NCBI RefSeq assembly: GCF_046119375.1
Contig: NW_027362764.1
Coordinates: 707,606,001 to 707,670,000 of the forward strand
Reading direction: 5' to 3'
Length of the DNA: 64,000 nt
Source: Phyllobates terribilis
Lineage: Eukaryota
Positions 34,201-40,200 of this stretch are shown here, one piece after another. The stretch's first letter is position 1; every line of letters begins with the position of its first letter. Made by a program: the position numbers.

Positions 34201-37200
34201 AGGAAGAATTAATTGAATTTCAGGTATTTGTGGATTGTGGTTCAACTCTGAATGTGATTGATGGGGGATTCTTGGAAAAACTTAATTTAAAACCCAAACC
34301 TTTATCATCCCCTATTGCCGTGGTTTCTGTCGATGGCTCTCCCTTGAAATGTGTTACTCACAAGGTTTATGAATTTCCCCTCACTATTAATGGTATTCAC
34401 CAAGAAAATTTGGATTTGGTGGTATTAAATAATTTGCCTTCTCCAGTAGTTTTGGGGTTGCCCTGGTTAAAATTGCACAATCCTGTACTGGATTGGTCTA
34501 CCAATGAAATGAAGTAAAATAAACAATAAAGACCAAGCTCAACTATGGACAAGACGGGTGCCAGGAATACAACAAATGCATCCGTGTAAATAAAGATTCC
34601 GGCACACCAAATAATATGGAAAAAGTCTCATATAGGTAATGAAATAATAGATGCTTTATTTCTCCAACATAAACTGGTTCATATAGTAGTCAGTATACAG
34701 TTGCCTGCCCAACGTTTCAACCCCAACGGGGTTTTCCTCAGGGGCATCAAAGGAGCTTCAAAACCAGAAAATAAACAAAATAAAGACATAAGTGTGACAC
34801 AAAATAAAAGACGATACAATGAGTAATATACAACAAAATAGGCATATGTGAACGGAGCAAGACAAGGGGGAAAGAAAGGGAGTAGGGGGGGGGAGAAAAG
34901 AGAAGGGGGGGGAATCGGGGAGAACAATGGGAGTAAAAGGAAGGGGGAACAATGTGCATACAGAACAAACGAACGGATTGATGTAGAAATAAAAAGGAAA
35001 AGGATACCTAGTTGCTATGCGCTGATTAATATCTGGGAGAAAATCCCAGTGGTAGTGGAGAAACTCAGGGGAAAATAAAGAGAACCAGTCTTGGTAGTGG
35101 TAAGGGAAAACAGGGGATCAGCCGGCAAAATAGCTGTAAACAGACGGCAAAGGGAAAATGAGACACCAGTAGTCAGAATAAAACCAGTATCCAAACACAA
35201 GAGATGACTTGCCTTAAGTGAGGGAAGGTCAAAAATGCAGAAGTCTGAGGGAATAGCCAAGGAGACCTGCCTGCGGGGTAAGGTAGGTAGACCTGAGGGT
35301 AAAGAAAGGGGGTAAAAACTGGAGACTATGGGGACATATGGGATGCCACGCATAGAGGGCTCTTACCTATATGTGGAAATGGAGCAAAAGTCCGGCCGTT
35401 GGTGGTGTAGTATCTAGAGCGTTGGCGGTATTATAAGTGCTGTGAGGCTTCCTGCTTCCGGAGCGCGGGGACGCAACTTCCGGTTAGGTGGAACGCAACA
35501 TCCGGTGGCGTGGAACGCATAAACGCGCATGCGCGCGGTCAAAAGGGAGAGAAATACAGGAAGGAATGAAGGCACAGCGGCGCGTGCGCGGGATATGAAT
35601 AAAGGAGCAGGGAACCTCAAAGAGGAAATAAGAGACAGGGGGAGCAGAGGCACCAAAAGAATGGGGGTAAAAATTGGATAAGGGGGAGGAGAAAAAAGGG
35701 AAGAAAAGACCAAAAATAGGTAAAGAAAAGGGGCAAAACAGAGGAATAAAAGTAAAAATTAAAGTAATAAATGATAAGAGGGGAAGGCAGGGAAGACATA
35801 CACAATAAGGATATGACGGTATCTGTAGGGAGAGAGAAAGGGGGAGGGGGGAATGGATGTATAGAATAATAGAAATGTATATATATAGCAATGTGAAAGG
35901 AAAACAGGGGAAATACATGTTATACAAAGTGCATGTCACATAACATCTGCAATATAATAAATGATCCGGTGCAATATGAAAATTATTATATACAGTGACA
36001 AAAAGGATATATCCGGTTCAAATATGTAGGGTCTGTGAAAGAAGTAAAAATATAATATAAGAAATACAGACAAAGCGAAAATCATGGGCAATAAGTAAAA
36101 TTAAACCTATCTACCTGTATAAACCTCGGGAAGAGCAAAGGAACCACATTGGTAAGATAATAAAAGAGAAGGTATCTCAAACGTGAACCTCATATTCTCG
36201 GTTGAGGCCATGAGGTTCCAATGTCTGAAGGGTAAAGATCCAGAATGCCTCCCTTTCTTTGAGCCTCTGGATCCTATTGCCCCCTCTTCTGCCCGGTGGA
36301 ACGTGGTCTATCACCTGGTAGCGTAATTGAGCAATAGAGTGATGATGGGCAAGGAAATGGTTAGGGATTGGTAATAAATTATATTTGCATCGAATAGTGG
36401 ATTTATGTTTGCTAATCCTATCTCTGATATGCTGTGTTGTTTCCCCCACATATCCTAGGCCGCATGGACACTTGATCAAATATACTACGAATGAGGAGTC
36501 ACAAGTGAAATAGCCCTTGATCGGGAACCTCTTGCCTGTCAGAGGGTGTGTAAATGAACTACCTCGGGTAATGTTAGAACATTGACGGCAGCCTAGGCAT
36601 GGGAAATTGCCTGAGGGTGGTGTCGATAATGTCGTCTGGTGTGTCCTTGGGTTAGAACTCCCAATGTCGGCCCGTACAAGTTTGTTCTTAAGGTTAAGAG
36701 GTCTTTTGTTACATACCATGACTGGCTCCTGAAAGTCCGGGATCTTGGGGTATGAATTGCTCAGTATTGGCCAATGAGTCCTAAGTATATCACGGATAAG
36801 GGTCTGGTACGGATGGTAGGTGTTAACAAAAGTCATGCGGTTTGTCTTGGGTGTCCGTTGTCGGGGGATAAGTGGTGGAAAAGCTATGGGAGGTGGGTAG
36901 CCTCTGTTGACAAATTTTTTTCCGATTTCCAAGTGTCGTAAGGTGCGTGAAGATGGATCCGAAACAATTCTACTGACCCTGGTGTCACAACACACCAGGG
37001 TCAGTAGAATTGTTTCGGATCCATCTTCACGCACCTTACGACACTTGGAAATCGGAAAAAAATTTGTCAACAGAGGCTACCCACCTCCCATAGCTTTTCC
37101 ACCACTTATCCCCCGACAACGGACACCCAAGACAAACCGCATGACTTTTGTTAACACCTACCATCCCTACCAGACCCTTATCCGTGATATACTTAGGACT

Positions 37201-40200
37201 CATTGGCCAATACTGAGCAATTCATACCCCAAGATCCCGGACTTTCAGGAGCCAGTCATGGTATGTAACAAAAGACCTCTTAACCTTAAGAACAAACTTG
37301 TACGGGCCGACATTGGGAGTTCTAACCCAAGGACACACCAGACGACATTATCGACACCACCCTCAGGCAATTTCCCATGCCTAGGCTGCCGTCAATGTTC
37401 TAACATTACCCGAGGTAGTTCATTTACACACCCTCTGACAGGCAAGAGGTTCCCGATCAAGGGCTATTTCACTTGTGACTCCTCATTCGTAGTATATTTG
37501 ATCAAGTGTCCATGCGGCCTAGGATATGTGGGGGAAACAACACAGCATATCAGAGATAGGATTAGCAAACATAAATCCACTATTCGATGCAAATATAATT
37601 TATTACCAATCCCTAACCATTTCCTTGCCCATCATCACTCTATTGCTCAATTACGCTACCAGGTGATAGACCACGTTCCACCGGGCAGAAGAGGGGGCAA
37701 TAGGATCCAGAGGCTCAAAGAAAGGGAGGCATTCTGGATCTTTACCCTTCAGACATTGGAACCTCATGGCCTCAACCGAGAATATGAGGTTCACGTTTGA
37801 GATACCTTCTCTTTTATTATCTTACCAATGTGGTTCCTTTGCTCTTCCCGAGGTTTATACAGGTAGATAGGTTTAATTTTACTTATTGCCCATGATTTTC
37901 GCTTTGTCTGTATTTCTTATATTATATTTTTACTTCTTTCACAGACCCTACATATTTGAACCGGATATATCCTTTTTGTCACTGTATATAATAATTTTCA
38001 TATTGCACCGGATCATTTATTATATTGCAGATGTTATGTGACATGCACTTTGTATAACATGTATTTCCCCTGTTTTCCTTTCACATTGCTATATATATAC
38101 ATTTCTATTATTCTATACATCCATTCCCCCCTCCCCCTTTCTCTCTCCCTACAGATACCGTCATATCCTTATTGTGTATGTCTTCCCTGCCTTCCCCTCT
38201 TATCATTTATTACTTTAATTTTTACTTTTATTCCTCTGTTTTGCCCCTTTTCTTTACCTATTTTTGGTCTTTTCTTCCCTTTTTTCTCCTCCCCCTTATC
38301 CAATTTTTACCCCCATTCTTTTGGTGCCTCTGCTCCCCCTGTCTCTTATTTCCTCTTTGAGGTTCCCTGCTCCTTTATTCATATCCCGCGCACGCGCCGC
38401 TGTGCCTTCATTCCTTCCTGTATTTCTCTCCCTTTTGACCGCGCGCATGCGCGTTTATGCGTTCCACGCCACCGGATGTTGCGTTCCACCTAACCGGAAG
38501 TTGCGTCCCCGCGCTCCGGAAGCAGGAAGCTTCACAGCACTTATAATACCGCCAACGCTCTAGATACTACACCACCAACGGCCGGACTTTTGCTCCATTT
38601 CCACATATAGGTAAGAGCCCTCTATGCGTGGCATCCCATATGTCCCCATAGTCTCCAGTTTTTACCCCCTTTCTTTACCCTCAGGTCTACCTACCTTACC
38701 CCGCAGGCAGGTCTCCTTGGCTATTCCCTCAGACTTCTGCATTTTTGACCTTCCCTCACTTAAGGCAAGTCATCTCTTGTGTTTGGATACTGGTTTTATT
38801 CTGACTACTGGTGTCTCATTTTCCCTTTGCCGTCTGTTTACAGCTATTTTGCCGGCTGATCCCCTGTTTTCCCTTACCACTACCAAGACTGGTTCTCTTT
38901 ATTTTCCCCTGAGTTTCTCCACTACCACTGGGATTTTCTCCCAGATATTAATCAGCGCGTAGCAACTAGGTATCCTTTTCCTTTTTATTTCTACATCAAT
39001 CCGTTCGTTTGTTCTGTATGCACATTGTTCCCCCTTCCTTTTACTCCCATTGTTCTCCCCGATTCCCCCCCCTTCTCTTTTCTCCCCCCCCCCCTACTCC
39101 CTTTCTTTCCCCCTTGTCTTGCTCCGTTCACATATGCCTATTTTGTTGTATATTACTCATTGTATCGTCTTTTATTTTGTGTCACACTTATGTCTTTATT
39201 TTGTTTATTTTCTGGTTTTGAAGCTCCTTTGATGCCCCTGAGGAAAACCCCGTTGGGGTTGAAACGTTGGGCAGGCAACTGTATACTGACTACTATATGA
39301 ACCAGTTTATGTTGGAGAAATAAAGCATCTATTATTTCATTACCTATATGAGACTTTTTCCATATTATTTGGTGTGCCGGAATCTTTATTTATACCAATG
39401 AAATGAAGTCCTGGAGCCCTAAGTGTTATGACAAGTGTTGTAACGGGCGCATTGCTGCTGTGGATAAAGGGGAATTACCTGTACCTATTCAGGATTTTTG
39501 GAAAGTTTTTTCTGAGGAGGAGTCGCAAATTTTGCCTCCCCATAGAGACTACGATTGTACCAATTTGTCCCTGGAGCGACTCTTCCTAAAAGTCGTTTAT
39601 TTAATCTGACTATTCCTGAGAGAAAGGCTTTGGAGGAATACATACAGACGAGCTTGGCCGCCGGTCATATCAGACCCTCTAAGTCACCTGTGGCGGTTGG
39701 ATTTTTTTTTGTTAAAAAAAAGGACGGCGGTTTACGTCCTTGTTTGGACTTTCGCGAGATTAATAAAATTACTGTACGCAATCCTTACTCACTGCCATTG
39801 ATTCCTGATTTGTTTAACCAGTTAGTGGGGGCCAAGTGGTTCTCTAAAATTGATCTCATACAATTTGTTGCGCATGAAGGAGGGTGATGAATGGAAGACT
39901 GCTTTTAACACTCCTGTGGGACCTTCAGAGGGATTTGGATAAGCTGGGTAGGTGGAGCATTAAATGGCAAATGAGGTTTAACGAGGAGAAATGTAAGGTC
40001 ATACATATGGGAAGGAAAAATGGAAGTCACCAGTACTCACTGAATGGGAAATCATTGGGGAATTCAGAGATGGAGAAGGACTTGGGCATCTTGATTGATA
40101 GCAAACTAAATTGGAGTGCCCAAAGTCAGGCCGCTGCTGTAAGGGCAAACAGGGTAATGGGATGTATCAGAAGAGGTATAGCTGCAAAGGATGAGAACAT

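What the first reader, a model, noticed from the sequence alone, without database searches (positions are those of the whole stretch)
34499..39409. 4.8-kb near-perfect palindrome made by a Penelope-like element
Arms of 2399 and 2401 bp surround a 6-nt spacer. I saw only two substitutions and a 9-versus-11 homopolymer difference. Both copies point outward from a shared 5' truncation point, one has 71 extra 3' nt, and a 17-bp TSD flanks the unit in a colinear host. Established: Penelope-like elements often have inverted terminal segments. Here the entire insert is mirrored. Inference: the nascent cDNA folded back and was copied in a single integration event. Persistence of a palindrome this tight is unusual, given cruciform instability.
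Basis: partly seen in the sequence, partly recalled or inferred. Interest (0 to 1): 0.68.

Follow-up and report, generated by a model that had tools for sequence, protein, structure and literature searches.

The report
Mirror-image Penelope-like retroelement insertion
A jumping gene of the Penelope-like class landed inside an older retroelement as two mirror-image, front-truncated copies joined head to head; this layout is already known for the class, and this clean example shows how the turn-around was made.

Summary
The palindrome is real. One 4,877-bp unit (34516-39392) sits between a perfect 17-bp target duplication, and a related host copy in the same window shows the empty site. The 6-nt "spacer" is not filler. 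Read on the + strand it encodes S-Q-H, which relatives conserve at that position, so it belongs to the right copy.

The element is a Penelope-like element (PLE). It has a C-terminal GIY-YIG endonuclease with the PLE zinc-finger motifs and 50-62% identity to frog RT+GIY-YIG proteins. It also has a minimal hammerhead-like motif near the 3' end, a one-sided "tail" and a TSD.

Published work already describes head-to-head inverted 5'-truncated PLE copies with junction palindromes and one-sided tails. It also reports extension of both target strands in vitro.

Best reading: a single integration event. The right-hand cDNA snapped back on itself through a native 6-nt loop. A second priming event on the other strand, at a more distal start site, supplied the 71-nt tail.

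This is a clean member of a known kind. Read support and a family survey could not be checked.

The parts
34499..34515 (.). Left copy of the 17-bp target-site duplication (host sequence)
   Evidence: Perfect direct repeat with 39393-39409 (family D18). A single copy is present at the empty site of host copy A, 32318-32334.
34516..36985 (-). Left PLE copy (2470 nt, sense on the minus strand), 5'-truncated, 3' end outward
   Evidence: tblastn of 6 frog relatives aligns on the minus strand from 36980 down to 36183-36192.
34516..34586 (-). 71-nt 3' extension ('tail') present only on the left copy
   Evidence: It is unique in the window and is not derived from the host flanks. Its last 18 nt repeat an internal element motif. 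It matches the one-sided PLE tail described in PMC8557442 and PMC11167929, although it is longer than the 30-40 bp quoted there.
34706..34746 (-). Minimal hammerhead-like motif, left copy
   Evidence: Pattern match 34711-34741. Helix I flanks were read from the sequence. Rfam does not call it.
36177..36985 (-). Left ORF fragment: last 268 codons plus stop (post-RT linker and GIY-YIG endonuclease). Broken once, by 5' truncation; 0 internal stops, 0 frameshifts
36986..36991 (+). 6-nt centre. It is native element sequence of the right copy, i.e. the loop of the turn-around, not filler
   Evidence: The + strand reading across it gives S-Q-H. Among the 68 of 87 relatives that carry the anchor motif, S occurs in 65, Q in 66 and H in 19 (F 32, Y 10) at these columns. 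The minus-strand reading gives C-C-D, which is not the S-Q-[FHY] found at these columns in relatives.
36992..39392 (+). Right PLE copy (2401 nt paired with the left arm; natively starts at 36985/36986), 5'-truncated, 3' end outward, no tail
36985..37800 (+). Right ORF fragment: 271 codons plus stop. Broken once, by 5' truncation; 0 internal stops, 0 frameshifts
   Evidence: The + strand tblastn alignments start 4-5 residues earlier in the relatives than the minus-strand ones.
39233..39273 (+). Minimal hammerhead-like motif, right copy. It lies 124 nt upstream of this copy's 3' end
39393..39409 (.). Right copy of the 17-bp target-site duplication
27879..43664 (+). Host copy B: an older Ty3/gypsy (chromodomain) LTR retroelement that carries the palindrome between its protease and RT coding parts. 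Its gag-pol is broken by 3 nested insertions, at least 1 frameshift and 4 stops inside the alignments
   Evidence: LTRs 27877-28306 / 43235-43668 match at 422 of 430 positions, with flanking 5-bp repeats. Pfam domains. Break counts come from tblastn run on the pieces separately.
29011..33976 (-). Host copy A: a young related LTR element nested in B. It supplies the empty-site comparison at 32318-32334
   Evidence: LTRs identical at 419 of 419 positions, 5-bp TSD, intact 1355-aa gag-pol ORF 29442-33509. Colinear across the PLE target.

Best explanation
A Neptune-type Penelope-like element integrated once, by target-primed reverse transcription, into the pol region of an older Ty3/gypsy copy, duplicating 17 bp of target.

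Shown:
- one insertion unit with one TSD;
- two 5'-truncated copies head to head with their 3' ends outward;
- the 6 central nt are native sequence of the right copy;
- the left copy reaches 71 nt further at its 3' end.

Inferred sequence of events:
(1) Both nicked target strands primed reverse transcription on element RNA. The right strand started at a proximal start site and the left strand at a start site 71 nt further downstream.
(2) After about 2.4 kb, the right-hand cDNA (minus strand) left its RNA template and turned back on itself. The turn left a 6-nt loop closed by at most one pre-existing T:A pair. The cDNA then copied itself, making the sense strand of what became the left arm.
(3) That sense DNA paired with the short or long cDNA primed from the left nick. 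Extension of each strand on the other added the tail and completed both strands through the loop.

The 3 substitutions and the homopolymer difference arose later, or during copying.
For: - One unit, one TSD, empty site in a paralogue.
- PLE identity. GIY-YIG domain. 87 relatives at E<=1e-5, up to 62% identity, full-length ones carrying RVT_1 plus GIY-YIG. C-x2-C-x2-C linker and two Cys between the GIY and YIG blocks, read. Minimal hammerhead-like pattern: 3 matches in the window against 0.15 expected, two of them the mirrored pair.
- Native loop. S/Q/H column shares of 65, 66 and 19 of 68. The two preceding family columns (P 67/68, K or R 49/68) are not matched by the window. tblastn on the + strand starts 4-5 residues earlier than on the minus strand for 6 of 6 relatives.
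- Loop orientation. Because of it, only the minus strand can be the strand that turned.
- Offset. A 6-7 nt difference between the inner ends is the size of a minimal hairpin loop. Under independent truncation over a few kb it would be expected well under 1% of the time (inference).
- Outer ends. Both follow the same 8-nt motif. The distal end repeats an internal 18-20-nt motif.
- Literature. Purified anole PLE protein cleaves and extends both strands, and the tail equals the stretch between two RT start sites (PMC11167929). cDNA snap-back junctions are documented for R2-protein TPRT in cells (PMC11371274, passages). PLE inverted junction palindromes have been interpreted as self-priming (PMC3846280).
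Against: - No other copy of this family is in the window, and no eukaryotic genome collection was available. The sequence upstream of the truncation point, the family's usual 3' ends and the frequency of symmetric dimers are therefore unknown.
- That the 71 nt are element sequence is inferred, not shown. They are about twice the 30-40 bp quoted for PLE tails.
- Pre-existing pairing at the turn is at most 1 bp.
- Rfam does not recognise the hammerhead-like motif, and its 10.1-11.1 pair is A-U rather than the G-C reported as conserved (PMC4209133).
- The stem-loop predicted around the proximal start site is not better than shuffles (z = -0.98).
- The model needs three steps; simpler-looking rivals remain.
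- No reads were seen.
Confidence: 0.55

Rival explanations
1. Two independent cDNAs, one from each nicked strand, both ran to the same end of the RNA template (a truncated or processed RNA, or a strong stop). They were then joined by end-joining with loss of 6-7 nt from one of them. No fold-back occurred.
For: Both strands are extended in vitro by a PLE protein (PMC11167929). The two different outer ends already imply two priming events. At most 1 nt of homology exists at the join.
Against: It gives no reason why the offset should be the size of a hairpin loop. Two antisense cDNAs have no complementarity to anneal. It requires a defined RNA end inside the coding region, for which nothing in the window speaks.
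Confidence: 0.17
2. Self-priming by an antisense transcript, as proposed for PLEs by Arkhipova et al. 2013. The 3' end of an antisense RNA folded back and primed DNA synthesis on itself, giving a head-to-head pair.
For: The strand that turns is antisense in its first half, which an antisense RNA satisfies as well as a cDNA does. The hypothesis is in print (PMC3846280).
Against: It does not explain the tail or how both outer ends came to lie at start-site-like motifs next to a TSD. In vitro data show target-primed extension from sense RNA (PMC11167929).
Confidence: 0.08
3. The palindrome was inherited. A read-through transcript of an older head-to-head copy elsewhere was reverse-transcribed end to end in an ordinary one-sided event.
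For: It would give one TSD and an already symmetric insert. PLE transcripts spanning several copies are described (PMC11167929).
Against: Such an RNA would be a 2.4-kb perfect hairpin and so a poor template. The left outer end coincides with a start-site-like motif rather than an arbitrary transcript start.
Confidence: 0.07
4. Assembly or read artefact (fold-back chimeric molecules). The real locus holds one arm.
For: PLE tandem and inverted structures are said to trouble assemblies (PMC8557442). The homopolymer difference is of the kind that sequencing errors make.
Against: Both outer junctions are element 3' ends next to a TSD, whereas a single 5'-truncated arm would have one junction at its truncation point. 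The flanks continue the host in direct order. One arm has a tail the other lacks. 2 of the 3 substitutions are in CpG context, as expected of real divergence (small n).
Confidence: 0.05
5. An ordinary single 5'-truncated insertion was later duplicated in inverted orientation by a DNA-level event (replication template switch or break repair at a short inverted repeat).
For: Snap-back at very short inverted repeats with 3-12 bp spacers can drive palindromic duplications in yeast (review PMC7999016, passages).
Against: Such events mirror flanking DNA too. Here the mirror stops exactly at the element's end, the TSD flanks the whole unit, and the host continues in direct order.
Confidence: 0.03

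Closest known systems
Penelope-like elements with an inverted 5'-truncated copy or inverted pseudo-LTR (Penelope/Poseidon, Neptune, Naiad; Adineta vaga Pen families)
   Same: Head-to-head orientation. A palindrome at the inverted junction. A tail at one end only. A TSD of variable length around the whole unit. Heavy 5' truncation. A hammerhead-type motif in the terminal region (PMC8557442; PMC3846280; PMC4209133).
   Different: In the passages I read, a truncated inverted copy abuts a longer or full-length unit. Here there is no longer unit: both copies stop within 6-7 nt of each other, so the whole insert is a near-perfect palindrome. The tail is 71 nt rather than 30-40 bp. The figures of those papers are not held, so I cannot say whether fully symmetric pairs are drawn there.
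cDNA snap-back junctions in R2-protein-mediated target-primed insertion (PMC11371274)
   Same: [quoted passage not shown] This gives antisense element sequence next to the upstream target.
   Different: That is a different retroelement class (non-LTR R2) and an engineered setting. It is described as one junction category, not as complete mirror-image inserts with a one-sided tail.
Twin priming of LINE-1 (5' inversion); recalled, not from a call
   Same: Both target strands are thought to prime reverse transcription in one event, giving an inverted segment inside one TSD.
   Different: Twin priming joins two different parts of one RNA, so nothing is duplicated. Here the same 2.4 kb is present twice.
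Hairpin-primed second-strand synthesis by retroviral RTs in classical cDNA cloning; recalled, not from a call
   Same: The 3' end of a first-strand cDNA turns back with little or no pre-existing stem and is extended on itself.
   Different: That is an in vitro observation with other enzymes and involves no genomic integration.

Membership tests
Penelope-like elements (EN+ canonical) | PLE-type (telomerase-related) reverse transcriptase | tested here: inconclusive
   The RT core is absent from both arms because of 5' truncation. Relatives at 50-62% identity over the retained 268 aa carry RVT_1 upstream of the matching part (P0002 RVT_1 326-499). tblastn finds no RT-coding PLE piece in the window.
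Penelope-like elements (EN+ canonical) | C-terminal GIY-YIG endonuclease with a CCHH motif whose two Cys lie between GIY and YIG | tested here: met
   Pfam GIY-YIG E=0.0018, 18.9 bits, below the 22.6-bit cut-off. Relative P0002 passes at 23.1 bits. Two Cys between the two blocks and downstream His residues were read in the alignment. The feature definition comes from PMC8557442.
Neptune / Nematis clades of PLEs | [quoted passage not shown] | tested here: met
   A C-x2-C-x2-C motif is present upstream of the GIY block, with its three Cys invariant in the window and all 7 aligned relatives. Definition from PMC8557442. No phylogeny was made, so clade placement rests on this motif alone.
Penelope-like elements (EN+ canonical) | Complex insertion: partial tandem and/or adjacent inverted 5'-truncated copy | tested here: met
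   Two inverted 5'-truncated copies head to head. No tandem (direct) copy is present.
Penelope-like elements (EN+ canonical) | Short 3' extension ('tail') at one end only | tested here: met
   71 nt on the left copy only. This is longer than the published 30-40 bp. Its origin from the element is inferred.
Penelope-like elements (EN+ canonical) | Hammerhead ribozyme motif in the terminal repeat | tested here: inconclusive
   The core pattern is present in both arms (3 matches in the window against 0.15 expected). It has a 5-bp helix I, a 6-bp helix II, an extra base between positions 9 and 10.1 and a palindromic 15.2-16.2, all read. That is three of the four recurrent features listed in PMC4209133; the G10.1-C11.1 pair is not met. 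Rfam gives no hammerhead match at E<=1 over 8 kb or E<=10 over 251 nt. Cleavage was not tested.
Penelope-like elements (EN+ canonical) | Target-site duplication of variable length | tested here: met
   17 bp, confirmed against an empty paralogous site.
LINE-1-type twin-priming inversion | Inverted and direct segments are different, adjoining parts of the element, with no duplication | tested here: not met
   The same 2399-2401 nt are present in both orientations.

The most novel reading that the evidence does not exclude
This locus is a natural record of a complete PLE integration in which all three PLE-specific steps can be read from one insert. These are priming on both target strands, use of two different internal RT start sites (giving the one-sided tail), and a homology-free snap-back of sense-templated cDNA through a native 6-nt loop. 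If so, head-to-head PLE structures in general would arise from cDNA snap-back coupled to two-ended priming, and not from antisense-template self-priming. In addition, a transcribed 2.4-kb perfect hairpin inside a gypsy copy could act as a source of small RNAs against this PLE family.
Probability: 0.25. Interest if true: 0.55.

Novelty: new member of a known kind. Interest (0 to 1): 0.33.

Why it matters
How PLEs produce their odd tandem and inverted insertions is called undefined in the papers I read (PMC8557442). Only the first steps have been seen in vitro (PMC11167929).

A young, unrearranged, fully bounded example helps here. Its TSD, both outer ends and the turn-around point are all legible, so it gives concrete constraints. 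The strand that turned was antisense. The loop was native sequence. Pre-existing pairing was at most one base pair. The two outer ends were started at different sites.

It also serves as a worked example for annotators. A large perfect palindrome in an amphibian-like genome can be an ordinary PLE insertion rather than a misassembly. In itself it is not a new kind of element or mechanism.

Tried and rejected
- Rfam over 33000-41000. The only hits are miRNA and sRNA models matching the perfect central hairpin, all below their gathering scores. I rejected these as artefacts of the palindrome. A narrow scan of 39150-39400 at E<=10 also gave no hammerhead family.
- Coding for a PLE N-terminus in the 3' region (as in the anole element, where the terminal repeat includes the ORF start). 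tblastn of the first 300 aa of all 87 relatives against the longer copy gave only matches of short or fragmentary relatives to the known C-terminal part, plus weak noise. Nothing came of it.
- Source of the 71-nt tail in the host flanks, elsewhere in the arm or elsewhere in the window. None was found, apart from the terminal motif.
- Other PLE copies in the window, for a family comparison. There are none.
- The five other small palindromes in the window. They are unrelated to the PLE and to each other.
- Fold of the 3'-terminal 255 nt. A stem-loop spans the proximal start site but is no better than shuffles.
- I first read the two host copies as a head-to-head duplication. This resolved into simple nesting of a young copy A inside an older copy B.
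- Searches and the passages I read did not show a described PLE insert that is mirrored as a whole with a native loop. This is not an exhaustive search, and figures and most supplements were not seen.
- Not used: the genome-contig collection (bacteria and archaea only, so not relevant), structure prediction and the protein atlas.

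
Full report
OBSERVATION

The structure is in the sequence as described. The repeat finder gives two inverted-repeat blocks. One is 34885-36985 / 36992-39092 (2101 nt). The other is 34579-34912 / 39067-39400 (334 nt, 97%, out of register by a homopolymer length difference). Six nucleotides lie between the inner ends. A perfect 17-nt direct repeat lies at 34499-34515 and 39393-39409.

A global alignment of the left arm with the reverse complement of the right arm gives:
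- 2399 versus 2401 paired nucleotides;
- 71 additional outer nucleotides on the left arm (34516-34586);
- one 2-nt length difference in a G/C run (9 versus 11, read);

The window contains no N.

ONE INSERTION, REAL TSD

The flanks belong to a Ty3/gypsy-type LTR retroelement. A zinc knuckle and aspartyl protease lie to the left (33999-34517) and the start of RVT_1 to the right (39555-39887).

A self-comparison of the window plus LTR and flank checks resolve the neighbourhood into a nest:
- Copy B (27879-43664, + strand) is the older element. Its LTRs match at 422 of 430 positions and it has 5-bp flanking repeats. It carries three insertions.
- Copy A (29011-33976, minus strand) is a young related element. 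Its LTRs match at 419 of 419 positions, it has a 5-bp TSD, and it keeps an intact 1355-aa gag-PR-RT-RNaseH-IN-chromodomain ORF.
- The palindrome is the second insertion.
- A CR1-like fragment (about 39921-40876) is the third.

Copy A is 85-90% identical to B across the palindrome's target. It runs straight through a single copy of the 17-mer at 32318-32334. The 4,877-bp unit 34516-39392 is therefore one insertion with one target-site duplication.

Besides the three insertions, B's gag-pol shows at least one frameshift and four stops within the alignments. These counts come from tblastn of A's protein against B's four pieces taken separately.

WHAT THE ELEMENT IS

Each arm reads outward. It holds 268 codons without a stop or frameshift, ending at a natural stop. 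A 3' region follows: 1,592 nt on the right and 1,661 nt on the left.

Protein evidence:
- The ORF fragment has a weak GIY-YIG match, 18.9 bits against a 22.6-bit cut-off.
- It finds 87 longer proteins at E<=1e-5 among 1031 candidates. Nearly all are from frogs (Ranitomeya, Phyllobates, Dendrobates, Xenopus and others) and a salamander. Identity reaches 62%.
- Full-length relatives carry RVT_1 upstream and GIY-YIG at the C-terminus.
- The arms align to their last third, e.g. residues 553-821 of the 824-aa P0002.
- In the alignment the window shows two Cys between the GIY and YIG blocks. It also shows a C-x2-C-x2-C motif in the linker.
- According to Craig et al. 2021 (PMC8557442, passages), the first marks all canonical EN+ PLEs. 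The second marks Neptune/Nematis and is absent from Penelope/Poseidon.

RNA motif evidence:
- A hammerhead core pattern occurs once in each arm (34711-34741 minus strand, 39238-39268 plus strand).
- It lies 124 nt upstream of the right copy's 3' end.
- The window has 3 matches against 0.15 expected from shuffles. The third, at 40725-40763 in the CR1 fragment, is probably chance.
- Read, the motif has a 5-bp helix I, a 6-bp helix II, an extra base between positions 9 and 10.1, and a palindromic 15.2-16.2 with no loop 3.
- That fits the minimal, dimer-dependent PLE hammerhead of Cervera and de la Pena 2014 in three of the four recurrent features they list. The G10.1-C11.1 pair is not met (PMC4209133, passages).
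- Rfam does not call it, so I rate this feature inconclusive.

The RT core cannot be tested, because it is missing from both arms. Overall I file the element as a 5'-truncated Neptune-type PLE. The window is most likely from an anuran genome, judged from the hit taxa only.

THE CENTRE

This is the main new result. On the + strand, the reading frame of the right copy continues leftward through the six central nucleotides and the last base of the left arm. It reads S-Q-H before the first arm-encoded residues.

Evidence that this is native sequence:
- I located the same point in the relatives with an anchor motif. 68 of 87 have it; the 19 without it were dropped.
- At the three columns the relatives have S in 65, Q in 66, and H in 19 (F in 32, Y in 10) of 68.
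- The two columns before that are P in 67 and K or R in 49 of 68. The window has other residues there.
- On the minus strand the same six nucleotides read C-C-D, which is not the S-Q-[FHY] that relatives have at these columns.
- tblastn confirms this independently. For 6 of 6 relatives the + strand alignment starts at 36985 or 36982 and 4-5 residues earlier in the relative than the minus-strand alignment, which always starts at 36980.

The "spacer" is therefore native element sequence belonging to the right copy. The right copy is 6-7 nt longer at its 5' end than the left copy. The only possible pre-existing pairing at the turn is one T:A pair.

In strand terms, the minus strand reads antisense right arm, then antisense loop, then sense left arm. 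That is what a cDNA-like strand turning back on itself looks like. The + strand cannot be the strand that turned, because its loop would then have the opposite sequence.

THE OUTER ENDS

The left copy extends 71 nt beyond the point where the right copy meets the TSD.
- The 71 nt occur nowhere else in the window and are not copied from the host flanks.
- Both outer ends follow the same 8-nt motif. That motif occurs four times in the 2,470-nt copy. Only 2 of 2000 mononucleotide shuffles reach three occurrences.
- The last 18 nt of the tail repeat, with a 2-nt difference, a motif 254 nt upstream.
- A one-sided tail is a published PLE signature (PMC8557442; PMC3846280).
- Frangieh et al. 2024 (PMC11167929, main text read) show with a purified anole PLE protein that reverse transcription starts at two internal sites, and that the tail is the stretch between them.
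- The same paper shows that both the top and the bottom target strands are cleaved and extended, and that the start sites lie about 85-92 nt downstream of the hammerhead cut.

The geometry here is similar: 124 and 195 nt downstream of the hammerhead-like motif. The tail here is about twice the quoted length.

MECHANISM

A single cDNA that folds back and copies itself explains the centre. It cannot explain the tail, because the arm that owns the native loop (right) is the arm without the tail, and a self-copy cannot contain what its template lacks. Two fully independent cDNAs explain the ends but not why the two truncation points lie 6-7 nt apart. Under independent truncation over a few kb, that would be expected well under 1% of the time (inference).

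The model that fits all features combines the two:
1. Both nicked strands primed on element RNA, at different start sites.
2. The right-hand cDNA snapped back through a minimal loop after about 2.4 kb and copied itself.
3. The resulting sense DNA paired with the cDNA from the left nick.
4. Mutual extension added the tail and completed both strands.

Each step has a precedent:
- dual-strand extension and two start sites in a PLE;
- cDNA snap-back before 5' junction formation in R2-protein TPRT (PMC11371274, passages);
- self-priming, proposed for PLE junction palindromes (PMC3846280).

Whether the strand that turned was cDNA or, as Arkhipova et al. suggested, an antisense RNA cannot be told from this locus. 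The rivals are listed with their weights in the Rival explanations section.

ARTEFACT?

I could not see reads. Internal evidence argues for a real structure:
- Both outer junctions are element 3' ends abutting a TSD. A single 5'-truncated arm would have one junction at its truncation point.
- The host continues in direct order on both sides.
- The arms differ in content (loop, tail).
- The arms differ at three sites, two of them CpG-type.

AGE AND STABILITY

Three differences in 2399 sites (0.125%) compare with about 2-3% between copy B's LTRs. The insert is therefore much younger than its host copy, unless conversion between the arms has erased differences. A review states that long, similar arms with short spacers carry the higher risk of instability (PMC7999016, passages). 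With so little divergence, however, there is no evidence that this palindrome has persisted for long.

COMPARISON AND NOVELTY

Craig et al. [quoted passage not shown] Arkhipova et al. 2013 describe an abundance of inverted-repeat structures with palindromes at the inverted junction, head-to-head being the most frequent, and interpret them as self-priming.

The present insert is the limiting case in which no longer copy is present, so the whole unit is a palindrome. In the passages I read, and in the searches, I did not find that limiting case described, nor the native-loop argument. The figures and most supplements were not available, and the search was not exhaustive.

I rate it a new member of a known kind. 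It is useful as a clean natural record of PLE integration steps, but it is not a new system.

Noticed in passing
29011-33976 (minus strand): A complete, apparently very young Ty3/gypsy chromodomain element (copy A). Its LTRs are 419 of 419 identical, it has a 5-bp TSD, and it carries an uninterrupted 1355-aa gag-PR-RT-RNaseH-IN-chromo ORF (29442-33509). It is nested in an older relative.
   Followed up: yes
39921-40876: A CR1-like LINE fragment also nested in host copy B, with a 266-aa ORF at 39884-40684 that has no Pfam hit at E<=0.01. The CR1 call comes from my reading of the translation, not from a database hit.
   Followed up: partly
24195-24543, 25701-26003, 26987-27301, 62875-63135, 63386-64000: Five other self-complementary stretches (about 260-630 bp, arms 75-88% alike). 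They are unrelated to each other and to the PLE. They may be foldback or MITE-like elements. The last one runs off the window end.
   Followed up: partly
35455-35535 and mirror 38440-38522: In the PLE 3' region there are 2.2 copies of a 22-nt tandem unit with CTTCCGG-like cores, next to a GC-rich 12-nt palindrome. From memory, these resemble ETS-type and NRF1-type promoter sites. This would fit a promoter role for the PLE terminal region, but it was not tested.
   Followed up: no
sense positions 2199-2470 of the longer copy (window 34516-34787, minus strand): The last ~254 nt carry the hammerhead-like motif and both putative RT start sites. They are bracketed by two copies of an 18-20-nt T-rich motif. 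The module may correspond to the family's terminal repeat, or to a retrozyme-like unit (compare preprint 10.64898/2026.07.22.740005, passages).
   Followed up: partly
48736-49316 and 53635-54215: A 93% direct repeat pair 4.9 kb apart, enclosing ORFs with SCAN/zinc knuckle, integrase C-terminal/SH3 and RT-RNaseH domains in an order that looks rearranged. This is probably another, degraded LTR element.
   Followed up: partly
1-767 and 3801-4567; ORF 680-2701: A 99.2% direct repeat of 767 bp at the window start, in a 54-62% GC stretch. A 673-aa ORF between the copies has a cold-shock domain match (E=2e-7). Its nature is unknown.
   Followed up: no
18001-20000: A strong GC skew (+0.32) at 55% GC, with three overlapping minus-strand ORFs (237-301 aa). 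The longest of them (19154-20059, the only one scanned) has no Pfam match, which suggests a simple or low-complexity repeat region.
   Followed up: no
40725-40763 (minus strand): A third match to the hammerhead core pattern, inside the CR1-like fragment. Helices were not examined; it is likely chance.
   Followed up: no
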